Below are positions 749-50,545 of a DNA stretch of 64,000 nucleotides, piece after piece. The stretch comes from a bacterium (GTDB lineage: Bacteria > Patescibacteriota > Microgenomatia > Levybacterales > UBA12049). The translations under genes were made by a program, and so were the position numbers. Position 1 is the stretch's first letter. Each line of letters opens with the position of its first letter. Where the stretch lies: the NCBI GenBank assembly GCA_021780675.1, contig JAJXYH010000034.1, positions 19,889 through 83,888 on the forward strand. The letters run 5' to 3'. Under the pieces are notes generated by a model. The model did no database searches and was not told the origin of the DNA. It was given only the letters and a program-made list of their open reading frames with translations.

Positions 749-1054
749 ATGAAAATTAAAAAAGGCGATAGCGTAAAAATTATTAGAGGAAAAGATAAGG
801 GAAAAGACGGTAAAGTTGAAAAAGTTTTTCCAAAAGACGGTAAGGTTTTGGTATCTAATATTAATCAGTATAAAAGACATCTTAAGGCAAGAAGCGAAAC
901 CGAGCCTTCGGAGATTGTAACTTTAACAAAACCGTTACCTGAGGAAAATGTTGTTTTGGTCTGTCCTAAATGTCATAAGACAACAAGAATTGGTTACAAA
1001 TTAGAAAAAAACAAAAAATTAAGAATTTGCAAAAAGTGCAAATCGGAGATTTAA
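749..1054 (+). CDS. rplX: 50S ribosomal protein L24 with C-terminal C4 zinc-ribbon extension
   Basis: KOW-like N-terminus (KIKKGDSVKIIRGKDKGKDGKV). C-terminal CPKC...CKKC motif. Confidence 0.9.
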   Translation: MKIKKGDSVKIIRGKDKGKDGKVEKVFPKDGKVLVSNINQYKRHLKARSETEPSEIVTLTKPLPEENVVLVCPKCHKTTRIGYKLEKNKKLRICKKCKSEI

Positions 1055-1058
1055 AAAT

Positions 1059-1616
1059 ATGGATAATACAAATATAAAAAATTCATTACAAGACAGATAC
1101 AATAAAGAAATTAGTAAAAAGCTCCAGCAGGAGTTGGGGATAAAGAATGTTTTGGCAACACCTAAGCTTTCCAAAATCATAATTAATATGGGTGTAAAAG
1201 ATGCGGTTTCGGATAAAAAACATATGGAAAAAGGAGTGGAAATTTTAGCACAAATAACCGGACAAAAACCAAAGGTTATGAAGGCTAAGAAATCAATTTC
1301 TTCATTTAAACTTAGGGCTGGAGAAGAAATAGCACTTATGGTAACATTACGTGGGAAAAGAATGTATGATTTTTATCAAAAATTAACAGACATTGTTTTT
1401 CCAAGATTTAGGGATTTCCACGGAGTTAAAAAGACCAGTTTCGACGGAAAAGGAAATTATTCAATGGGTTTTTCCGAAAGTACTGTTTTTCCCGAAATTG
1501 ATCCTAGCAAAATCGATAGAATTCAAGGATTTGAAGTATCTGTTGTAACAACGGCAAAAAACGATGAACAGGGTTTTGCATTATTAAAGGCACTGGGGAT
1601 GCCTTTTGTTAAATAA
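1059..1616 (+). CDS. rplE: 50S ribosomal protein L5
   Basis: 185 aa; conserved L5 sequence and operon position. Confidence 0.9.
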
Positions 1617-1620
1617 AAAT

Positions 1621-1806
1621 ATGGCAAAGAAATCAGATGTAGCAAAATTTAATAAAAAACAGAAGTTTACAGTAAGACACGTAAACAGATGTAGTCTTTG
1701 TGGAAGATCCAGAGCTTATATGCGAAGGTTTGGAATTTGCAGAATTTGCTTTAGGGAACTTGCACAGAAAGGAGAGTTACCGGGAGTAGTTAAATCTACC
1801 TGGTAA
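1621..1806 (+). CDS. rpsZ: 30S ribosomal protein S14, zinc-binding type Z (61 aa)
   Basis: [10 protein letters not shown]... with CSLCGR...CRIC zinc motif. The internal ATG at 1621 gives the canonical 61-aa length. The ORF track start at 1606 overlaps rplE. Confidence 0.9.
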
Positions 1807-1812
1807 AAATAT

Positions 1813-2205
1813 ATGAACCATTTAGTATCGGACTTTATTATTAGAATTAAAAATAGCGCTCTTTCAAAAAGGAAAGAAGTATTATTGCCTTTTTCCAACA
1901 TTAACAAAGAGATTGGAAAAGTGTTGGTAAAAGAAGGGTTTTTAGAAAGCATAAAAGAGGAATCAACTAAAGGTAAAAAAGAGTTAAAAGCAGTCATCAG
2001 CTATGATGATAGAACCCCGGTTTTAACTAATGTAATAATTATGTCTAAGCCATCACTTCGAATTTATTCAACGAGCAAAAAACTTTCTGAAATTGCAAAA
2101 AGAGGGAGAAGAAAAGTTATTGTTTCAACAAGTAAAGGAGTAATGACATCATTTGAAGCGCAAAAGAAAGGATTGGGAGGAGAAGTGCTCTTCTCTATTT
2201 GGTAA
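1813..2205 (+). CDS. rpsH: 30S ribosomal protein S8
   Basis: 130 aa; the S8-like N-terminus (DFIIRIKNS) and operon position. Confidence 0.9.
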   Translation: MNHLVSDFIIRIKNSALSKRKEVLLPFSNINKEIGKVLVKEGFLESIKEESTKGKKELKAVISYDDRTPVLTNVIIMSKPSLRIYSTSKKLSEIAKRGRRKVIVSTSKGVMTSFEAQKKGLGGEVLFSIW

Positions 2206-43013: not shown

Positions 43014-43033
43014 ATATTCGATATATCGAATAT
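43014..43033 (+). promoter_or_regulatory. perfect 20-bp palindromic operator overlapping the ArsR-family gene start
   Basis: ATATTCGATATATCGAATAT ends inside the ATG at 43032. An upstream TTGACG with an extended -10 TGaTATATT gives a promoter. Confidence 0.55.
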
Positions 43034-43526
43034 GTATTACGAAGTATTTCAGTTACATGCTAAGCTTTTAAAAGCTTTATCAAATCCCAAAAGGCTCGAA
43101 ATTATTCAACTAATTAGAGAAGAGGAACTACCAGTTGCAGAAATTCAAGAAATGCTTGATTTACCCCAAGGAAATTTAAGCCAACATTTACAAGTGCTCA
43201 GAGCTGCAGGCATTGTTAAGACAAGACGGGAAGGAAAACAAATTTATTACAGTATTTCCCATAAAAACTTTATTAAAGCAAGCGATTTATTTAGAGAGGT
43301 ATTGATAGAAAGAAATAAAGACGCTGTTTCAGATATAGCTTTTAAAAAAATGGCCGATCTTGTTCCTTTAACTTCAGATCCGGTATGCGGGATGAGAGTA
43401 AGCCCTAAAACTTCGGCGTTTGCTTACAAAAACACTGGGGATGAATTTTATTTCTGCGGTTCAGGATGTTACGAAAGATTCAAGAAATACCCTAAAAAAT
43501 ACATCAGAGCAGTAGCATTCGCTTAA
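43032..43526 (+). CDS. ArsR/SmtB-family transcriptional regulator with C-terminal YHS metal-binding domain
   Basis: ArsR wHTH (LSNPKRLEIIQLI...LSQHLQVLRAAGIV) plus a YHS/TRASH-like DPVCGMRV...YFCGSGCYERF tail. Confidence 0.7.
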   Translation: MYYEVFQLHAKLLKALSNPKRLEIIQLIREEELPVAEIQEMLDLPQGNLSQHLQVLRAAGIVKTRREGKQIYYSISHKNFIKASDLFREVLIERNKDAVSDIAFKKMADLVPLTSDPVCGMRVSPKTSAFAYKNTGDEFYFCGSGCYERFKKYPKKYIRAVAFA

Positions 43527-43530
43527 TTTT

Positions 43531-43884
43531 ATGGACAAAATTATTGTTAGTATTGTTGGCGTAGTTTTTATCGGTTTTATTTACTGGTTTTTCTTAGGAA
43601 AAAGAGAGAAAGGAGTAAAAGCCGAACGTTCCATTGATGTTCTGGTTAAAGGTGGTTATACCCCATCAAAAATTATTATTCCTCAAAATAAAACTACGAC
43701 CATCAATTTTACAAGAGAAGACTCCAATAGCTGTCTTGAAGAAGTTGTCTTGTCTGATTTTAAAATAAGAAAATATCTTCCCATCAATAAAACGGTCAGT
43801 ATACAAATAAATCCATCAAAGAAAGGAGATTTTAATTTTTCCTGTGGAATGGGAATGTTTCACGGAAATTTAATTGTCGAATAA
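43531..43884 (+). CDS. membrane-anchored cupredoxin-like domain protein (paralog of the 46082 gene C-terminus)
   Basis: N-terminal TM helix. The C-terminus YTPSKIIIP...SNSC...[16 protein letters not shown] aligns with the C-terminal domain of the 344-aa protein. Confidence 0.5.
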
Positions 43885-46085
43885 TGGATAATAAAAAAAC
43901 ATATGCGGTAAAAGGAATGCATTGTGCTTCATGCGTAAGGGTTTTAGAAAAAGCAATTGGGAAAGTTGATGGTGTTAAAGAAGTTAGTGTAAATTTAGCA
44001 ACTGAAAAAGCAGCTGTATCTTTTTCGAAGAAAGTAGAAGATCAGGAAATAAAAAATGCCGTACAAAAAGTAGGGTATGGATTAGAAGAAGTAAATGAAG
44101 ACGCCGAAAAAGTTGAAAAACAAAAACAATTAAGTGATTTAAGAAATAAACTTACACTCAGCTTAGTTTTGGGTTTTTTGATCTTTTATGGAAGTTTTCC
44201 AGGTTTAATGAAATTTTCACCTGTGTTACTTCAAAACTTTTTAGTTCAACTTCTCTTATCATTGCCCGTTCAATTTTGGGCAGGACTAAGCTTTTATAAA
44301 GCCGCAATTCCAGCTTTTAAGAATAGGACTGCCAACATGGACACTCTGGTTGCGGTCGGAACATCGGTTGCTTTTTCTTATTCGGTTTTTGTAACTCTTT
44401 TTCCCCAGATTCCAAAATCGATTGGAATAGAGCCAATGCCCTATTTTGACGTTTCAACAATTATTATTGGTTTAATTCTTTTAGGCAGATATTTTGAGGC
44501 AAGAGCTAAAAGCAATACCTCAGAAGCAATTAAAAAGTTAATGGGACTATCTCCCAAAACAGCTAGAGTGATTAGAAATGGAGAAGAATTGGATTTGCCA
44601 ATTAGTGAAGTTATTGTGGGTGATGAAATAAGAGTTAGGCCTGGGGAAAAGATTCCGGTTGACGGAACTATTTTAGAGGGCGAATCTTCAATTGATGAAG
44701 CAATGATTACAGGCGAAAGTATTCCTGTAGATAAACTTAAAGGCGATGTCGTAATTGGTGCGACCATGAATAAGTCAGGAAGCTTTACTTATAAAGCTAC
44801 AAAAGTAGGAAGTGAAACTATGCTCTCACAAATTATAAAACTTGTTCAGGAGGCTCAGGGAAGCAAGGCCCCAATCCAAAGAATTGCCGATTTAATTTCT
44901 TCGTATTTTGTTCCGGTTGTCATAATGCTATCGGTATTAACTTTTGTAATCTGGTATGATTTCGGACCTGTACCGTCATTTTTATTTGCTCTCTTAAACA
45001 TGGTTGCAGTTTTAATTATTGCTTGTCCTTGTGCCATGGGACTTGCAACACCAACGGCCATCATGGTCGGAACGGGTAAGGGAGCGGAAAACGGTATTTT
45101 AATTAAAGATGCGCAGAGTTTAGAATTGGCTCATAAAATAAATGCGATTGTTTTTGATAAAACCGGAACTTTAACAAATGGAAAACCGGAAGTAACTGAT
45201 ATATTAGGAGAAGATAAAAATAAGATTTTAATGTTGGCAGCATCCTTAGAAAAAGGCTCAGAACATTCTCTTGCTACTGCGATTATTCAAAAAGCGGAAA
45301 AAGATAAAGTTAAACTTATTAAAGTTGAAAAATTTCAATCAGTCGTAGGGCATGGTATTCAGGGTGTAATAGCAGGAGAAAAAGTAGTCCTAGGTAATAA
45401 ACGCTTTATGAAAAAAGAAAACATTGATATTTCTAGTTTGGAAAAAGATATAGACCAATTAGAAGAAAGCGGCAAAACAGTAATGATTTTGGCTGTTGAT
45501 GGAAAAGAAGTGGGAGCTATTTCTGTTGCCGATACCCTTAAGGATAGCGCTAAAGAAGGAGTTTCACTTTTGAAGAAGATTGGCATTGAAGTTTTTATGA
45601 TAACCGGTGATAACGAGAAAACAGCAAACGCAATTGCGAAATCGATAGGAATACAAAACGTTTTAGCAGAAGTTTTGCCAAGTCAAAAAGAAGAAGAGGT
45701 CCGAAAAATACAGGCAAAAGGAAAAATTGTTGCAATGGTTGGAGACGGAATAAACGATGCTCCTGCTTTGGCAGCAGCCGACATAGGAATTGCCATGGGA
45801 ACGGGAACAGATGTAGCGATTGAGGCAGCGGATATAACTTTACTAAATAAAGACTTAAAATCAGTTTCGCAATCAATTAATCTCTCGAAAAAAACAATGA
45901 GAACAATAAGACTTAATTTATTTTGGGCATTTGGTTATAACATCGTGTTGATACCTGTTGCGATGGGTTTACTTTATCCGTTTTTTCATCTGTTCCTAAA
46001 TCCTATCTTTGCGTCTCTGGCAATGGCCTTAAGTTCAATATCGGTAGTAACTAATTCACTTACCCTAAAAAGAGTCGCAATATGA
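43884..46085 (+). CDS. copA: copper-translocating P1B-type ATPase
   Basis: N-terminal HMA (GMHCASCV), CPC in TM6, [15 protein letters not shown]; 733 aa. Confidence 0.9.
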
Positions 46086-47116
46086 ATATAACCAGCTTAA
46101 TTTCAATATTTTTAACAGGACTGTTAACAGGCGGTCTTAGCTGCATGGCCGTTCAAGGAGGACTTCTGGCGGCAACATTGGCTCAAAGGGAGGAAGAAAG
46201 ACTGAAGAGCAATTTAAAAAGTGGCGGTAATGCTATACCAATTATCTCGTTTTTAGTTGCAAAATTGGTTGCTTATACGATTCTAGGATTTTTGTTGGGT
46301 TCATTAGGTTCTGTATTCCAATTGTCGTTATCTTTAAAAGTTATTATGCAAATCGCAGTAAGTATTTTTATGCTTGGGACTGCTTTTAATATTTTAGATG
46401 TTCATCCTATTTTTCGATATTTTGTAATCCAACCCCCTAAATTTCTAACAAGACTTGTTAGAAAACAATCCAAGAGTCAGGATGTTTTTGCTCCGGCTAT
46501 CTTAGGATCCCTTACCATTTTTATCCCTTGCGGTATTACGCAGGGAATGATGGCTTTAGCCATAGGGTCAGGTAGTCCTTTATCGGGGGCATTGATACTT
46601 TTTGCATTTATTCTTGGTACATCACCCATATTTTTTGTGTTGGGATACTTTGCAACAAAGCTCGGAGATATATTCCAGCAAAGATTTATGAAAATTGTAG
46701 CTTTTGCAATCATTTTCCTGGCAATATTTAACATCAATAATGCAATTACCTTAAGTGGAGTTAAGCTTCCATTTGGTGATATAGCTAAAAATGTTTGGTG
46801 CACATTTACTATATGCGACAATGTTACTTCGGGAACTAATGTTGCAATAAACAATAGTCCTACGATTACTATTGGAGCTGTAAGTTATACCCCAAATATT
46901 ATAAGTGTAAAAGCAGGAGCACGGGTAAAATTGAAGCTTGTGAACACAGAGGGAACAAGTTGTATTCAGGCCTTTACAATACCTAGCTTAGGATTGCAAA
47001 AAATAGTTCGTCCCGGAACATCTGATGAATTAGATTTTATAGCCCCAAGTACACCTGGACAAATTCCATTCATGTGTAGTATGGGAATGTTTAAGGGGGT
47101 GATTAACGTACTATGA
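46082..47116 (+). CDS. CcdA/DsbD_2-like polytopic membrane protein fused to a C-terminal cupredoxin-like domain
   Basis: TM Cys motifs LSCMAV and [16 protein letters not shown] resemble CcdA TM1/TM4. The C-terminal domain YTPNIISV...GTSC...[14 protein letters not shown] is paralogous to the 43531 protein. Confidence 0.5.
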
Positions 47117-47331
47117 TAAAGAAAGTTTTTAAAATAAAAGGAATGCATTGCACTAGTTGTGCAATAAATATAGACGGAGAGTTAGAGGATACAGATGGAG
47201 TAAAACAAGCTAATACTAATTATGCAAAGGTTATTACTGAGGTTGAATTTGACCCAAAAAAAATAAATGAAGAGCAAATTGTGAAGTTAATTAAAAAGGT
47301 TGGTTATGATGCTGCTCTAGTAACAAATTAA
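47113..47331 (+). CDS. copZ: copper chaperone CopZ (HMA domain)
   Basis: 72 aa with GMHCTSCA and a ferredoxin-like fold. Confidence 0.85.
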   Translation: MIKKVFKIKGMHCTSCAINIDGELEDTDGVKQANTNYAKVITEVEFDPKKINEEQIVKLIKKVGYDAALVTN

Positions 47332-47433
47332 AATGAGATTCAAGCGATAACTATATAAAACTATATTATCAATGAAATACCCTTTTTATACTGTTTTATA
47401 TGTCTCATTTAGCCTCAAAAGCAAGACATCACT

Positions 47434-47470
47434 ATAATGATATAATGGGTCTAGACTGGAATGCTCAGCA
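47434..47470 (+). repeat. intergenic repeat copy A (about 37 nt)
   Basis: ATAATGATATAATGGGTCTAGACTGGAATGCTCAGCA. Related copies lie at 49061 and 50491. Confidence 0.6.
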
Positions 47471-47482
47471 AATGAAAAATAG

Positions 47483-47508
47483 TGGCTAATCGCCACCTTT
47501 TTTATTTG
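47483..47508 (+). terminator. rho-independent terminator after copZ and repeat A
   Basis: GTGGC-TAAT-CGCCAC followed by CTTTTTTATTT. Confidence 0.6.
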
Positions 47509-47600
47509 CTGTTGGTGGTAGAGATTTGTTTCGAATCTCGAAGCGAAGCGGAGATACTCGTAAGAGTACATTGCTCGGCAGCAAAACCTTGAATTAGACT

Positions 47601-48074
47601 ATGAATGATCTACTCATAAGAAGCTATAAATCTTCCGATAATCAGGAAATAAAAGACCTCTACAAACTGGCCTCAGTAGAATCCGAAATTGGTTTTCGGG
47701 ACGGTCCGTGGTATAAAGATTTTGATATTATGGAAAATTTTTATATGGATAAGGGAGATTTTTTAGTGGGAGTAATGGGTAATAAAATTGTAGCAATGAT
47801 AGGACTAGAGAAATCATTAAAAACGGTAGGGCACATTAGGAGGATGAGGGTGCATCCAGAATATAGGAGAAGAGGGTATGCCCAAGCGCTTCTTAAGGAA
47901 TTGGAGGAGAGGGCGGTTAAAAAAGGATTTACAGAGCTTCGTCTTCGTACATCAATCCAGCAGATAATGGCACAGAGGCTTTATGAAAAAAACGGATATT
48001 CAAAAATGAAGTCAAAAAAAGAGTTTTATTTGGAAGGTCCTTTTGAGGTGATTTGGTATAGGAAATTGCTATGA
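47601..48074 (+). CDS. GNAT family N-acetyltransferase
   Basis: RRMRVHPEYRRRGYAQALL acetyl-CoA-binding motif; 157 aa. Confidence 0.75.
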   Translation: MNDLLIRSYKSSDNQEIKDLYKLASVESEIGFRDGPWYKDFDIMENFYMDKGDFLVGVMGNKIVAMIGLEKSLKTVGHIRRMRVHPEYRRRGYAQALLKELEERAVKKGFTELRLRTSIQQIMAQRLYEKNGYSKMKSKKEFYLEGPFEVIWYRKLL

Positions 48075-48099
48075 GGTTCAAACGGTTCGAGAGCGGCAC

Positions 48100-48125
48100 G
48101 CTCATGTGAATTGGATTCGAACGGA
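48100..48125 (+). repeat. intergenic repeat copy D (shared 3' module)
   Basis: GCTCATGTGAATTGGATTCGAACGGA is near-identical to 50519-50545. Confidence 0.5.
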
Positions 48126-48310
48126 AGAGCCACTAAGGATTAGATTGTGATAGTAAGCTAATCTTGTATAACTTAAATTTCCATTTTTACGGTTCTAAGC
48201 CTTCTTAAATTGTTCTTAAACCAACTCAGGGTTTAAGACATAAAAATGAAAATATTTAAAATGGTTGATTTATTAAACTGAATTTTCTACGAAGTTTGAT
48301 TTTTAAGTCC

Positions 48311-48751
48311 TTAATTGTCTGATCTTTTTTTGAGTAATTCTAAAATTTCGCTTTGTTTTTCATTAATGTTATGAATTTCAGAAGTAAGAGTATGAATTGC
48401 AATTAACGTTTCGTGGTCGTTTAGAGCTCTAGCATCACTTGCTTCTGCCTGAACATTTTGACCAACTATAATTATTGGCAATAATACTAATTGCAAAAAT
48501 GCCTGAGAAATCCAAGCAACAATTATGATGGGGTCATGCGACATAATAGCAGCCGGTAATGCTACTAAGGAAATTAAAGCAAATAAGTATGCCATCCACA
48601 TAGAACCAACGGACTTTGTAATTATTACTGCAATGCGTGTGTTAAAACGACCAATTGGATTGTCTCCATGAACCGTTTTATGTGCATCCCGATTTAAAAT
48701 CAGTTTTGGTTTGTGGGATTTTGCTTTAGTAACTTCTTCTCTATTTGTCAT
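48311..48751 (-). CDS. small two-TM membrane protein (DUF1003-like)
   Basis: 146-aa ORF with two central hydrophobic helices flanked by charged segments. Confidence 0.4.
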   Translation of the reverse strand: MTNREEVTKAKSHKPKLILNRDAHKTVHGDNPIGRFNTRIAVIITKSVGSMWMAYLFALISLVALPAAIMSHDPIIIVAWISQAFLQLVLLPIIIVGQNVQAEASDARALNDHETLIAIHTLTSEIHNINEKQSEILELLKKRSDN

Positions 48752-49060
48752 AATTTTTTATGCAAAATTTATAGATGTAATAATACGACTACTAAAAAGA
48801 TTATAGCAGATTTTTAAATACTTTATAAACTTTTAAACCCACAAGTTTTCCAATGTTATGGCAGATAAATTTTACTTAGAGGCTCTAAAAAGAAGAAAAG
48901 AATTAGACAGTAAGAATTTAAAACCATACCTTAATATTTATCTAAATAAATTAGATAAGCTTGACAAGAAAGAAAAAAAGGGGCTGCTGAAGACGCGCTT
49001 TTATATAGCACTATTTTTCAAAACGCTGCAACAATAATCTCCTAATGCTATAATTTAACT

Positions 49061-49097
49061 ATAACGACTAACTGGATCTAGACCGGTATGCTCAGCA
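49061..49097 (+). repeat. intergenic repeat copy B
   Basis: ATAACGACTAACTGGATCTAGACCGGTATGCTCAGCA, preceded by gcTATAAT. Confidence 0.6.
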
Positions 49098-49145
49098 TTT
49101 TAACCTAAAAATTGACATTTTTTATGTTTATGAGATGATTTAGTT

Positions 49146-50414
49146 GTGGATCCGAATAGAGCATTGCAAGCTGAACAATCTAATATTCCACTTAATCAAC
49201 AAGTAAGTGCAATACCTCCTAAACCTTTATCGAGAATAAAATGGATTTCAATTTCAGTAGTAATAATTATTTTAATTATTACTTCAATAGCTGGAATATA
49301 TTACCTTGGATTAAAAAATTTATTTAATAATCAAAGTAAGATATCTACCTCTCCAGCAAATAACGAATCTATAAATGTTGGGAAAGGCTACATAGTTGGT
49401 ATAAGTAAGGATAAATTGGCATGGTATAACCCGAGCACAGGAAAAACAATATCCTCTTCAATAGCATTGTCACCAAAACAGTTTATCCTTTTCTCACCTG
49501 ACAAATCTAAATTTCTTACAGTTTCAGGTGATAGATATGATTTTAAAAATCAAAAGAGATCAATAGCTGTTTATGATAATTATGGTAACAATATTCTTTC
49601 AAAAAATATAGAAATACCTAAAGGTTATGGTATTTCATCTGGCATGGCTGATATTTCAGCAAATTTTGGGTGGGGATTGAATAGTGATGGAATCGTATAT
49701 TATTTGATGAAGCTGGTTAAGGAGAATCAGCCTATTGGAGGAGTTTATGATTTCGAATTTCATTTCGTTTCACTAGTTGATAAAACAGACACCGTAATTT
49801 ATAAAATGGAAAAAATTATTACAGAACAAAATTTTCTTGTGCAAGGATATGAGAGTGAAACGAAAAAATTAATATTGGAAGAACTCCTCACGGTGGGTGG
49901 AAATATTATCGGTATTCAGACCACAACAAATGAACAAAAAACGCTGTTTTATAATAACAATGTTCGAAATTTATCTTTAAGCACGGATGGGAAAGGCTTT
50001 ATTAACATTTCTCAACTAGATTCTACCATCTATCCTATTTCTCAAGATTTATCTAAAAAAAATTTACTTCCTCTACTTAATTTACCTGCAAAAATAGATA
50101 TGTTTTACCCCATGCCAGTGCCTATTTCTATATCCAATAATCTTATTGCCATCGTTTCATTTGAAACTAGAAAATATGGTAATTTGCTTCCCGCAGAACC
50201 CGTAAAAGTATTATTAATTGATCCAAATACTCTTGTTCTTGTAAAGACAATACCTGTTTCTGCAAGCCTTATTGAAAAGGGACAAGAATGGAAAGGCGTG
50301 ATAATAGAAGACGTAAATGAAAACGGAGATATATTAACAAATAATAAACTTTTAAGAAATAATACTGTAATAAATCTCCCTTTAGATTTTGAAGGATTAT
50401 CATTTATAAGGTAA
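49146..50414 (+). CDS. hypothetical membrane-anchored/secreted protein (GTG start)
   Basis: 422 aa with an N-terminal TM helix (ISISVVIIILIITSIAGIYYLGL). No recognisable domain. Confidence 0.45.
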   Translation: MDPNRALQAEQSNIPLNQQVSAIPPKPLSRIKWISISVVIIILIITSIAGIYYLGLKNLFNNQSKISTSPANNESINVGKGYIVGISKDKLAWYNPSTGKTISSSIALSPKQFILFSPDKSKFLTVSGDRYDFKNQKRSIAVYDNYGNNILSKNIEIPKGYGISSGMADISANFGWGLNSDGIVYYLMKLVKENQPIGGVYDFEFHFVSLVDKTDTVIYKMEKIITEQNFLVQGYESETKKLILEELLTVGGNIIGIQTTTNEQKTLFYNNNVRNLSLSTDGKGFINISQLDSTIYPISQDLSKKNLLPLLNLPAKIDMFYPMPVPISISNNLIAIVSFETRKYGNLLPAEPVKVLLIDPNTLVLVKTIPVSASLIEKGQEWKGVIIEDVNENGDILTNNKLLRNNTVINLPLDFEGLSFIR

Positions 50415-50490
50415 ATGTTGAAAATAGGTTATAACGCCATCTATAATCCCCGCAATTACGGACTATAATTCTAAAGCTCGTATCCTGGTT

Positions 50491-50545
50491 ATAACGATAA
50501 ACTGGGTTTAGACCGGTATGCTCATGTGAATTGGATTTGAACGAG
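50491..50545 (+). repeat. intergenic repeat copy C (5' module shared with A and B, 3' module shared with D)
   Basis: ATAACGATAAACTGGGTTTAGACCGGTATGCTCATGTGAATTGGATTTGAACGA. It matches repeat B at 30 of 34 positions over the core ATAACGA...GCTCA. Confidence 0.6.

What the first reader, a model, noticed from the sequence alone, without database searches (positions are those of the whole stretch)
47434..50545. Family of about 35-40-nt intergenic repeats, preceding three consecutive unrelated genes, with a second shared module
Three copies share ATAA(C/T)GA..AACTGG(G/A)T(C/T)TAGAC(C/T)GG(A/T)ATGCTCA at 47434-47470, 49061-49097 and 50491-50525. Copies B and C match at 30 of 34 positions. Each is preceded by a TATAAT-like box. 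Copy C continues into TGTGAATTGGATTTGAACGA, which is itself repeated directly after the GNAT acetyltransferase gene (48100-48125). Copy A lies between copZ and a terminator, so it could be the 5' end of a roughly 60-nt sRNA (motif, hairpin, U-tract). The repeats could be a shared promoter or leader (a small regulon), a small RNA family, or remnants of a miniature mobile element. The element is strongly over-represented within 3 kb.
Basis: seen in the sequence. Interest (0 to 1): 0.6.

Follow-up and report, generated by a model that had tools for sequence, protein, structure and literature searches.

The report
Boundary repeat of mobile gene cassettes
The repeats are copies of a conserved 40-base end-piece that marks the downstream edge of small mobile gene cassettes; in candidate-phyla-radiation bacteria these cassettes stack head-to-tail, often directly behind the glutamine tRNA gene, much like an integron but with a different site and no identified enzyme.

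Summary
There are three exact matches to the 21-nt core (0.01 expected), a fourth degenerate copy after the GNAT gene, and the shared second module.

The motif ("E", ~40 nt, ...TATAAYGAnnnAAnGGnTCTAGACCGGTATGCTCAGC|) is not local. At least 97 copies occur in 62 Patescibacteria/Levybacteria loci of 32-48 % GC. They form same-orientation arrays (21 of 22 multi-copy loci). In 14 loci the array lies downstream of a tRNA-Gln gene.

Homology between genomes starts 0-3 nt after the ...CAGC| of the preceding site and, in most of the shared cassettes, ends exactly at the cassette's own E.

The cleanest case is a sister pair. L084 has tRNA-Gln...GGCAGC| followed directly by the next cassette. L083 has a 1,785-bp insert at that point, ending in E...GCTCAGC|.

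Window 47348-50543 is therefore a cassette array between the copper operon and the pilus operon. It holds a GNAT cassette, an inverted cassette, a truncated DUF5674-pair cassette, a 422-aa ORF cassette and a 75-nt empty mini-cassette.

I found no Rfam hit, no conserved RNA fold, no attC architecture, and no recombinase in the window or in the first 56 related loci.

Best reading: E is a cassette-borne recombination site of an integron-like system whose enzyme is unknown. The promoter and sRNA readings are not supported as the general function.

The parts
47348..47469 (+). 122-nt 'long form' unit: AACTATAT... + TGAGACA/TGTCTCA heptamer repeats + TTAGCC-18-TATAAT + E copy A. It is inserted between the copZ stop (47331) and a terminator.
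   Evidence: blastn: 87 % identity to L063 5369-5490, and 74-80 % to L025, L029, L045 and L057; the homology ends exactly at the E 3' end. Alignment.
47430..47469 (+). E copy A (CACTATAATGATATAATGGGTCTAGACTGGAATGCTCAGC); ends in CAGC at 47466-47469.
   Evidence: exact core match; nhmmer E = 3e-11.
47482..47506 (.). Bidirectional intrinsic terminator directly after copy A (context only; either the displaced copZ terminator or the start of the next cassette).
   Evidence: both strands; fold of -27 kcal/mol, z = -4.5.
47470..48104 (+). Cassette 1: terminator, GNAT acetyltransferase ORF (47601-48074), and degenerate E copy D (48067-48104, TGCTATGAGGTTCAAACGGTTCGAGAGCGGCACGCTCA).
   Evidence: Pfam Acetyltransf_1, 2e-18. 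A homologous GNAT sits as a cassette in the tRNA-Gln array of L054 (504-989; 65 % nt identity). Copy D: family D2.
48105..48124 (-). Module F4 (TGTGAATTGGATTCGAACGG). Its reverse complement carries GTTCGAATCCAA, identical to the T-loop/T-stem of the tRNA-Gln genes. I read it as an inverted tRNA-end-like site abutting copy D head-to-head.
   Evidence: Sequence compared with the tRNA-Gln genes. The same arrangement follows E in L023 and L040.
48125..48848 (-). Inverted segment with a 146-aa membrane ORF (48311-48751, minus strand); its minus-strand 3' side ends in F4. The cassette status of this segment is inferred.
   Evidence: ORF list; only a weak DUF1003 hit; position relative to F4.
48849..49096 (+). 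5'-truncated relic of the DUF5674 + 88-aa two-gene cassette: ORF 48858-49037 (59 aa, the C-terminal part of the 88-aa protein) plus E copy B (49058-49096).
   Evidence: blastn to L018, L064 and L065, ending at the E 3' end in L018 and L065 and 25 nt short of it in the L064 alignment. Full cassettes in L080, L081 and L083/84.
49097..50453 (+). Cassette with a promoter-like start (ATTTTAACC...TTGACA-16-GATGAT), a 422-aa hypothetical ORF (49146-50414), and a possible decayed E (50427-50453, GGTTATAACGCCATCTATAATCCCCGC).
   Evidence: no Pfam or PHROG family. The decayed E is an inference from sequence only.
50454..50524 (+). 75-nt-class empty mini-cassette: F1 (AATTACGGACTATAATTCTAAAGCTCGTATCCTG, 50454-50487) joined directly to E copy C (50488-50524).
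   Evidence: The same F1|E junction occurs in L011, L024, L047, L054 and L066. F1 is otherwise the 5' end of the DUF5674 cassette.
50525..50543 (-). Second copy of module F4 (TGTGAATTGGATTTGAACG), abutting copy C.
   Evidence: family D2.

Best explanation
E is the conserved 3'-terminal site of a family of small mobile gene cassettes. These cassettes are inserted, deleted and exchanged precisely at the sequence ...CAGC|. A cassette is any stretch of DNA, from 75 nt to about 2 kb, carrying 0 to 4 genes in either orientation, that ends in E.

A cassette inserts immediately 3' of the CAGC that ends a primary chromosomal site. That site is most often the 3' end of the tRNA-Gln gene (A72-G73-C74). 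It can also insert 3' of the CAGC that ends another E. Because each insertion regenerates a target, cassettes accumulate as head-to-tail arrays in one orientation.

Window 47348-50543 is such an array, lodged between the copper-resistance operon and the type IV pilus operon.

What is shown:
- the repeat itself and its wide distribution;
- the array organisation;
- the exact cassette boundaries;
- one clean occupied/empty site pair;
- cassette mosaicism between genomes.

What is inferred:
- that a dedicated site-specific recombinase or transposase, acting in trans, excises the DNA between two direct sites as a circle and reinserts it, which is integron-like logic;
- alternatively, that an IS200/IS605-like single-strand mechanism cuts after a tetranucleotide;
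- that the long form is a promoter-bearing platform or empty unit.
For: (1) Distribution. The exact core was found in 8 plausible genome loci and 48 metagenome loci. nhmmer finds 97 copies at E < 0.01 in 62 loci covering 478 kb. Host GC ranges from 32 to 48 %.

(2) Arrays. 21 of 22 multi-copy loci have all copies on one strand. Examples: L041 has 6 copies, L080 has 5 copies in 5 kb after tRNA-Gln, and L020 has 3.

(3) tRNA-Gln anchor. 11 of 13 tRNAs found in the first 56 loci are tRNA-Gln, and all 11 lie upstream on the same strand as E. L080, L083 and L084 add three more.

(4) Occupied against empty site. L083 1-8135 matches L084 1786-9920 at 99.9 %, ending at tRNA-Gln ...GGCAGC. L083 9917-20289 matches L084 9917-20339 at 96 %. 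The 1,785 bp in between exist only in L083 and end in ...GGTATGCTCAGC. Only CAGC is shared by the two junctions.

(5) The same cassette in different contexts, with boundaries at CAGC| and at E:
- the Maf cassette, L016 115-822 = L020 3147-3849, 92 % identical, sits after a tRNA-Gln-end repeat in one locus and after E in the other;
- the GH130-like cassette in L002, L011 and L024;
- the mosaic L041 (X-Y), L056 (X-other), L031 (other-Y) at 94-96 % identity;
- different single-gene cassettes behind the same tRNA-Gln in the sister loci L022 and L061.

(6) A 75-nt non-coding F1+E unit recurs with an identical internal junction in 6 loci.

(7) Cargo can lie antisense to E (L083 insert; GH130-like cassette), so E is not an RNA element of its cargo.

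(8) In the 64-kb window E occurs only in the 3-kb variable stretch. Relatives with 76-81 % identical cop genes have no E after copZ.
Against: - No recombinase or transposase was found next to any array. Motif scans for tyrosine and serine recombinases covered the window and the first 56 related loci. Pfam on recurrent neighbours and on some cargo found nothing. So the enzymatic step is entirely inferred.
- No circular cassette contig was seen.
- E has no inverted-repeat architecture typical of simple recombination sites, and its hairpin potential is weak (only the GG/CC pairs are conserved).
- The resemblance of E to the tRNA 3' end is modest: 12-15 of 26, p about 0.02, and similar for tRNA-Pro and tRNA-Val.
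- The 5' boundary of the long form does not sit next to a clear CAGC.
- In L022 and L061, the 45 or 75 nt after E also differ.
- Only 43 of 89 unique copies have a same-strand ORF ending close by.
- All evidence comes from comparative genomics of metagenome assemblies.
Confidence: 0.65

Rival explanations
1. Shared promoter or 5' leader of a small regulon. The TATAAY box in E acts as a -10 element, and the conserved downstream 25 nt is a common initially transcribed or operator sequence controlling the following genes.
For: E contains TATAAT/TATAAC. The long form has TTAGCC-18-TATAAT. About two thirds of copies have a same-strand gene downstream. Long forms often follow a divergent gene.
Against: - 17 of about 53 copies face a convergent gene.
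- E-to-start distances range from -7 to over 400 nt.
- Short forms use TATAAC, which lacks the conserved final T, and begin at or inside the stop codon of the upstream gene.
- The promoter scan is at background level and does not call these sites.
- The promoter reading does not explain homology breaks exactly at the E 3' end, or the tRNA-Gln anchor.
Confidence: 0.1
2. A family of small RNAs or a structured cis-RNA. At copy A this would be a roughly 60-nt transcript from the TATAAT box to the terminator.
For: Copy A is followed 12 nt later by a strong terminator. The promoter-like arrangement in the long form also fits.
Against: - No Rfam family matches, even at E up to 10.
- Folds of copies B, C and D are no better than shuffles.
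- RNAalifold on 14 long forms gives -0.45 kcal/mol, 2 pairs and no covariation.
- Sequence 3' of E is unrelated between copies, and most copies have no terminator.
Confidence: 0.07
3. Classical MITE or IS remnants (miniature inverted-repeat elements mobilised by a DDE transposase).
For: The elements are short, intergenic and multi-copy. Non-coding units of 75 and 122 nt recur as blocks. An IS1595 transposase lies next to one copy (L026).
Against: - No terminal inverted repeats and no target-site duplications at any junction examined.
- All copies in a locus point the same way.
- Only one end is conserved in most cassettes.
- A transposase is absent from nearly all loci.
Confidence: 0.05
4. A true integron or CALIN: E is an unusual attC site recombined by an IntI integrase.
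For: - One site per cassette.
- Same-orientation arrays.
- Precise cassette gain and loss.
- Cargo typical of integron cassettes: GNAT, NUDIX, glyoxalase-like, methyltransferase, small hypothetical proteins.
Against: - No RYYYAAC...GTTRRRY boxes and no imperfect inverted repeat; E is 40 nt of conserved primary sequence.
- The junction is CAGC|, not G|TTRRRY.
- The primary site is a tRNA end, not an attI next to intI.
- No tyrosine recombinase motif was found in the window or the first 56 related loci.
Confidence: 0.05
5. Scars of ordinary integrase-carrying islands or prophages that integrated serially into tRNA-Gln. On this view E is a diverged attR copy of a tRNA 3' end, and today's cassettes are decay products, not mobile units.
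For: - The tRNA-Gln anchor.
- Genuine 11-12-nt duplications of tRNA 3' ends around small inserts in L016 and L081.
- E aligns in register with a tRNA T-arm plus acceptor end.
Against: - E is far more conserved between hosts (over 85 %) than the tRNA-Gln ends it would copy, and it is not a copy of any of them.
- The units are 75 nt to 2 kb, and no integrase motif was found in the loci scanned.
- A 1.8-kb integrase-less unit differs between genomes whose flank is 99.9 % identical, which implies recent movement.
- E is absent from IMG/VR, the phage collection and the plasmid collection.
Confidence: 0.08

Closest known systems
Integron gene cassettes, attC sites and CALINs (clusters of attC sites lacking an integrase)
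   Same: - One recombination site per cassette, at its 3' end.
- Tandem arrays in a single orientation.
- Each cassette brings its own slightly different site.
- Cassettes mostly carry one gene; empty and multi-gene cassettes exist.
- Precise gain and loss.
- Cargo of accessory and hypothetical genes.
- A possible promoter-bearing platform (the long form).
   Different: - The site is a 40-nt conserved primary sequence with no R''/L''/L'/R' inverted-repeat structure.
- The junction is after CAGC rather than within GTTRRRY.
- The primary site is the 3' end of tRNA-Gln.
- No IntI, or any tyrosine recombinase motif, in the window or the first 56 loci.
- Many cassettes carry their own promoter-like sequence.
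tRNA-anchored genomic islands built by serial integration, for example tycheposon islands of Prochlorococcus or P4-like islands (recalled from my own knowledge, not checked in the paper library)
   Same: The insertion point is the 3' end of a tRNA gene. Units accrete in tandem and are separated by direct repeats. The flexible-gene content is hypervariable.
   Different: In those islands the repeats are copies of the tRNA 3' end and the elements carry an integrase. Here the repeat shares only CAGC, plus loose T-arm likeness, with the tRNA. The units are as small as 75 nt and none carries an integrase.
IS200/IS605 family and its non-autonomous derivatives (PATEs; REP/REPIN elements mobilised by RAYT Y1 transposases)
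   Same: - Insertion immediately 3' of a specific tetranucleotide, with no target duplication.
- Ends that are not inverted repeats.
- Strand-specific, uniform orientation.
- Precise excision.
- Short, conserved extragenic repeats directly after stop codons.
- E lies on the G-rich strand, which is the lagging-strand template.
   Different: - No TnpA, RAYT or TnpB seen.
- No conserved left end or subterminal hairpins.
- E clusters in arrays rather than being dispersed.
- The tetranucleotide rule is inferred from junctions only.
pdif / Xer-dependent modules of Acinetobacter plasmids (recalled from my own knowledge)
   Same: Small gene modules bounded by short conserved recombination sites and shuffled between replicons, with no recombinase gene in the module.
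   Different: pdif sites are 28-bp XerC-spacer-XerD sites in alternating orientation. E has no such architecture, and all copies are direct.
Modular intergenic repeats (pneumococcal BOX, Neisseria Correia elements)
   Same: Short, modular (long form, F1, E, F4), intergenic, and sometimes promoter-containing.
   Different: Those elements are dispersed, have inverted ends or target duplications, and do not delimit exchangeable gene cassettes.

Membership tests
Integron (attC cassette array) | attC architecture: RYYYAAC ... GTTRRRY boxes forming an imperfect inverted repeat of 55-140 nt | tested here: not met
   E is 40 nt. Only a TATAAC resembles R''. There is no GTTRRRY at or after the 3' end. 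DNA folds of either strand are no better than shuffles.
Integron (attC cassette array) | Cassette junction inside the R' box (G|TTRRRY) | tested here: not met
   The junctions fall after CAGC.
Integron (attC cassette array) | intI (tyrosine recombinase) and attI adjacent to the array | tested here: not met
   No H-x-L-R-H-type motif in any ORF of the window or the first 56 related loci. Pfam on neighbours shows housekeeping genes: gltX, DAGK, PAP2, DEAD helicase. CALIN-like absence cannot be excluded, because whole genomes were not available.
Integron (attC cassette array) | Tandem cassettes, one site each, all in one orientation, with precise gain and loss | tested here: met
MITE | Terminal inverted repeats and target-site duplication | tested here: not met
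   The inverted-repeat search and the junction alignments show neither.
IS200/IS605-type (HUH Y1) element or PATE/REP | Insertion 3' of a fixed tetra/pentanucleotide without duplication, in one orientation | tested here: met
   CAGC| (variants TAGT|, CCGC|) precedes every cassette start examined. Orientation is uniform.
IS200/IS605-type (HUH Y1) element or PATE/REP | Subterminal hairpins at both ends, and a Y1 transposase or RAYT in the genome | tested here: inconclusive
   There is no conserved left end. E has only a GG/CC mini-stem. No small HUH protein was recognised in the loci, but no dedicated HUH motif scan was run and whole genomes were not searchable.
tRNA-targeting integrative island (att duplication of tRNA 3' end) | The direct repeat is a copy of the 3' part of the target tRNA | tested here: not met
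   E against tRNA-Gln 3' ends is 12-15 of 26, no better than against tRNA-Pro or tRNA-Val. True tRNA-end duplications exist only around two small inserts (L016, L081).
tRNA-targeting integrative island (att duplication of tRNA 3' end) | An integrase gene within the inserted unit | tested here: not met
Known structured RNA / sRNA family | Match to a curated covariance model, or a conserved covarying fold | tested here: not met
   Rfam at gathering and E-value thresholds; RNAalifold.

The most novel reading that the evidence does not exclude
A previously undescribed cassette-capture system of candidate-phyla-radiation bacteria. Genes are packaged as units ending in a 40-nt site (E) and inserted after the CAGC at the 3' end of tRNA-Gln or of another E. 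The enzyme would be unrelated to integron integrases, possibly a single-strand, tetranucleotide-directed HUH-like activity, or an unknown protein encoded elsewhere. This would give these tiny genomes an integron-like store of accessory genes.
Probability: 0.4. Interest if true: 0.85.

Novelty: new variant of a known kind. Interest (0 to 1): 0.72.

Why it matters
CPR/Patescibacteria have tiny, streamlined genomes, and little is known about how they gain and exchange accessory genes.

If E-bounded cassettes are a dedicated capture system, it would be a second, independently built solution to the problem integrons solve, in a major uncultivated branch of bacteria. The attachment point, the tRNA-Gln 3' end, can be located in any assembly.

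The finding gives three practical things:
- a simple sequence handle (GGnTCTAGACCGGTATGCTCAGC) to find hypervariable loci;
- a way to delimit cassette cargo, which is mostly proteins of unknown function;
- a basis for phylogenetic profiling to look for the missing recombinase.

It also explains assembly breaks in Levybacteria MAGs: one public contig ends at the repeat.

Tried and rejected
- Rfam at gathering and permissive thresholds: no match at the copies.
- ARAGORN: the copies are not tRNAs. I considered the anticodon-loop-like reading (CUA/UUA 'suppressor' loops) and dropped it, because the stem partners do not covary and no acceptor or D arm exists.
- Small-ORF reading of the core (xLDRYAQ on the plus strand, AEHTGLxP on the minus strand): the start codon is not conserved and the frames are closed in several copies.
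- T7-like promoter resemblance of copy B: not shared by the other copies.
- dif/Xer and attC comparisons: no architecture match.
- DNA and RNA folding of the mini-cassette and the long form: not better than shuffles, or only marginally. RNAalifold: no structure.
- Search for an adjacent integrase or transposase by Pfam and motif scans: none.
- IMG/VR scan: one chance hit inside a coding region. Phage and plasmid collections: nothing relevant.
- Synteny test with relatives of the cop operon: they lack E, but they also lack conserved downstream synteny, so no empty-site comparison was possible for the window itself.
- Structure prediction of the DUF5674 protein (pLDDT 55, unusable) and of its 88-aa partner (confident four-helix bundle, only generic fold matches): no mechanistic clue.
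- Literature searches for integron-like systems in CPR, tRNA-Gln islands and DUF5674: nothing on this element.
- Circular-contig test for free cassettes: none.


Full report
1. OBSERVATION

The 21-nt core GGRTYTAGACYGGWATGCTCA occurs at 47447, 49074 and 50504. All three are on the + strand with no mismatch, and nothing else in the 64 kb matches even with three mismatches allowed. The expectation is 0.01, and 0 of 100 shuffles reach three matches.

Ungapped extension gives about 40-nt copies at 47431-47470, 49058-49097 and 50488-50527 (family D1).

That alignment shows that the sequence after the GNAT gene is itself a fourth, degenerate copy of the repeat (48067-48104), followed by the module TGTGAATTGGATTYGAACG. 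I call this module F4.

There is no Rfam match at the copies, at either the gathering or a permissive threshold. There is no tRNA call. Single-sequence folds of the copies are no better than shuffles, except for the terminator next to copy A.

2. THE MOTIF IS WIDESPREAD IN CPR BACTERIA AND HAS A SHARP 3' EDGE

An exact-pattern scan of one genome per species gave 21 hits. Most are chance matches in unrelated phyla. Eight share the flanking repeat sequence as well; these include Levyibacteriota and 'Patescibacteria group' MAGs. A longer pattern found 48 metagenome loci, almost all with the full repeat.

The consensus is (G/C)YTATAAYGA-N3-AA-N-GG-N-TCTAGACCGGTATGCTCAGC. I call it E. Similarity stops abruptly after ...GCTCAGC.

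An nhmmer profile finds 97 copies (E < 0.01) in 62 loci totalling 478 kb. Host GC ranges from 32 to 48 %. E is therefore conserved across clearly different genomes.

There are two forms:
- a short form of about 40 nt;
- a 122-nt long form that adds AACTATAT..., four TGAGACA/TGTCTCA heptamers and a TTAGCC-18-TATAAT arrangement upstream.

Window copy A is a long form. 47348-47469 is 87 % identical to L063, and the homology ends exactly at the E 3' end.

3. ARRAYS AND THE tRNA-Gln ANCHOR

In 21 of 22 loci with more than one copy, all copies are on the same strand. Spacing is gene-sized.

Forty-three of the 89 unique copies start within -25 to +60 nt of the stop of a same-strand ORF, several of them at or inside the stop codon. 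Where the next gene is co-oriented it often starts about 40 nt after E.

ARAGORN on the first 56 loci found 13 tRNA genes. Eleven are tRNA-Gln, and all eleven lie upstream of E on the same strand, 50 nt to 3.3 kb away.

Three more cases came from context look-ups:
- L080 reads gltX - DAGK - tRNA-Gln, followed by five E sites in 5 kb.
- L083 and L084 also have tRNA-Gln upstream.

In L081 a cassette follows tRNA-Lys instead.

4. CASSETTE BEHAVIOUR

All-against-all blastn of the loci and junction read-outs show one pattern. Blocks shared between otherwise unrelated contexts begin 0-3 nt after the ...CAGC| of the preceding site. In most cases they end exactly at their own E.

Examples:
- The Maf cassette is 92 % identical between L016 and L020. 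In L016 it follows a repeat of the tRNA-Gln end (...GGCAGT|). In L020 it follows an E (...CTCAGC|).
- A GH130-like cassette is shared by L002, L011 and L024.
- A mosaic: L041 carries blocks X-Y, L056 carries X followed by something else, and L031 carries something else followed by Y, at 94-96 % identity.
- The sister loci L022 and L061 (95 % identical flanks) carry different single-gene cassettes directly after the same tRNA-Gln ...CAGCCA|, each ending in an E ...GCTCAGCCA|.

The cleanest case is L083 against L084:
- The left flank is 99.9 % identical over 8.1 kb and ends at the last base of tRNA-Gln (...GGCAGC).
- The right flank is 96 % identical over 10.4 kb.
- L083 alone carries 1,785 bp in between. 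The insert starts right after the tRNA and ends in ...CTATAACGACAAAACGGGTCCAGACCGGTATGCTCAGC.
- Only the four bases CAGC are common to the two junctions. This rules out homologous recombination as the cause.
- The cargo of that insert, like the GH130-like gene, lies antisense to E. E is therefore not a 3'-UTR or terminator element of its cargo.

A 34-nt module, F1 (AAATACGGACTATAACCCTAAAGCTCGGATTCAG), is the 5' start of one particular cassette, which carries a DUF5674 gene and an overlapping 88-aa gene (L080, L081, L083/84). F1 joined directly to E forms a 75-nt empty unit. This unit recurs with the same internal junction in six loci, always after a ...CAGC|-like end. Window copy C is one of these units (50454-50524).

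5. READING THE WINDOW

The window is chromosomal core: SecY, RNase Y, an AddA-like helicase-nuclease, TsaD, SecA, the cop operon and the type IV pilus operon.

Between copZ (stop at 47331) and pilB (50812) lies the array, in this order:
- the long form with copy A;
- a terminator;
- the GNAT cassette, ending in degenerate copy D (a GNAT homologue is a cassette in the tRNA-Gln array of L054);
- F4 and an inverted segment with a 146-aa membrane ORF;
- a 5'-truncated DUF5674-pair cassette (ORF 48858-49037) ending in copy B, homologous to L018, L064 and L065;
- a cassette with a 422-aa hypothetical ORF and a possible decayed E;
- the F1+E mini-cassette (copy C);
- a second F4.

The same arrangement is present in five independent assemblies of this organism, and one public contig breaks at the long form. 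Relatives with 76-81 % identical cop proteins have no E after copZ.

F4 read on the minus strand contains GTTCGAATCCAA, identical to the T-loop/T-stem of the tRNA-Gln genes. It abuts E head-to-head. I read it as a tRNA-end-like site belonging to inverted segments. That is an inference.

6. MECHANISM

Shown: E marks the downstream boundary of DNA units that are gained, lost and exchanged precisely at ...CAGC|. The tRNA-Gln 3' end and E itself serve as insertion points.

Inferred: an enzyme acting in trans recombines two direct sites. It would excise the intervening DNA, probably as a circle, and reinsert it after another CAGC. This regenerates a target each time and produces one-orientation arrays. 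It is integron logic.

The tetranucleotide rule, the lack of duplication, the non-inverted ends and the uniform strand fit equally well with an IS200/IS605-like single-strand mechanism. In this window E is on the G-rich strand.

I cannot discriminate between these two, because no candidate enzyme was found. There are no tyrosine- or serine-recombinase motifs in the window or in the first 56 related loci. Neighbours of the arrays are housekeeping genes. Cargo proteins have no informative families.

The very conserved DUF5674 + four-helix-bundle pair is the only recurrent cassette content. Its function remains unknown, and it also occurs without E (L085).

The similarity of E to a tRNA 3' end, in register (GGTTC.A..CC ... 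CAGC), is only suggestive: 12-15 of 26, p about 0.02.

7. RIVALS

- Promoter/leader. This is contradicted by convergent neighbours, by copies that overlap the upstream stop codon, by antisense cargo and by a promoter scan at background level. The long form may still carry a promoter.
- sRNA or structured RNA. There is no model match, no consensus fold, and the 3' parts are variable.
- MITE. There are no inverted ends or target duplications.
- True integron. The attC boxes, the junction and intI are all not met.
- Scars of integrase-bearing islands. E is not a tRNA copy, the units are tiny and integrase-less, one moved very recently, and E is absent from viral, phage and plasmid collections.

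8. NOVELTY

I found no description of this element in the held literature. It works like an integron or CALIN, but it fails the defining features of integrons that concern the site and the enzyme. It shares the tRNA anchor with island-forming integrative elements, and the tetranucleotide rule with IS200/IS605 elements.

I rate it a new variant of a known kind (site-specific cassette arrays). There is a substantial chance that the machinery is new.

The main weakness is that everything rests on comparative analysis of metagenome assemblies, and the enzyme is missing.

Noticed in passing
L080 9667-10270; L081 9666-10264; L083/L084 10001-10599; relic at window 48858-49037: A DUF5674 protein (112-114 aa) and an overlapping 87-89-aa four-helix-bundle protein form a very conserved pair in Levybacteria/Microgenomates. 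There are 3138 homologues, and the best 120 are all at least 79 % identical. The pair travels as a cassette bounded by F1 and E. Its function is unknown: it could be toxin-antitoxin-like or element-encoded. It also occurs without E, in L085.
   Followed up: partly
L016 about 820-995 (minus strand); L081 9454-9565: Inserts of about 170 nt and 100 nt directly after tRNA-Gln and tRNA-Lys are flanked by 11-12-nt duplications of the tRNA 3' end (CAAGTCCGGCAG; GTACGGCTCAC). This is classical att-type duplication, distinct from E.
   Followed up: no
window 48105-48124 and 50525-50543; L023 and L040 after E: Module F4 is an inverted fragment identical over 12 nt to the tRNA-Gln T-loop/T-stem (GTTCGAATCCAA). 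It is fused head-to-head to the GCTCA of E. The E core GCTCAGC is a near-palindrome, which might allow inverted insertion.
   Followed up: partly
window 47482-47506: A strong bidirectional intrinsic terminator sits 12 nt after copy A. The long-form unit appears to have been inserted between copZ and this terminator.
   Followed up: partly
window 43032-47331: Copper/metal operon: an ArsR-family regulator with a YHS domain, a cupredoxin-like protein, a P-type ATPase with an HMA domain, a DsbD_2-cupredoxin fusion, and a CopZ-like HMA protein. The fusion protein is widespread in Levybacteria (3965 hits).
   Followed up: partly
L071 (GCA_021833605.1, contig JAKBEW010000005.1): The public MAG contig of this organism ends about 220 nt after copZ, inside or just after the long-form repeat. 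The repeat probably breaks short-read assemblies.
   Followed up: no
L085 12302-15048: A region rich in toxin-antitoxin-like pairs (MazE/Fic, Gp49/HTH, RHH/YafQ) and many small ORFs lies next to a DUF5674 pair, with no detectable E. It may be a diverged array with a different site.
   Followed up: no
L026 about 1260-2140 (minus strand): An IS1595-type transposase (zinc ribbon + DDE) lies immediately upstream of a long-form copy. This is the only transposase seen next to any copy.
   Followed up: no
L002, L011, L019 (record titles: Bathyarchaeota, Gammaproteobacteria, Dormiibacterota): Contigs binned to non-CPR taxa carry E arrays and CPR-like genes (39-42 % GC; DEAD helicase and NUDIX genes 68-72 % identical to CPR loci). 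They are probably mis-binned CPR contigs.
   Followed up: partly
window 48182-48248: A weak sub-threshold match to the type-P3 twister ribozyme (17.5 bits against a gathering score of 39.9; E = 8.3) lies in the AT-rich spacer after copy D. It is most likely chance.
   Followed up: no
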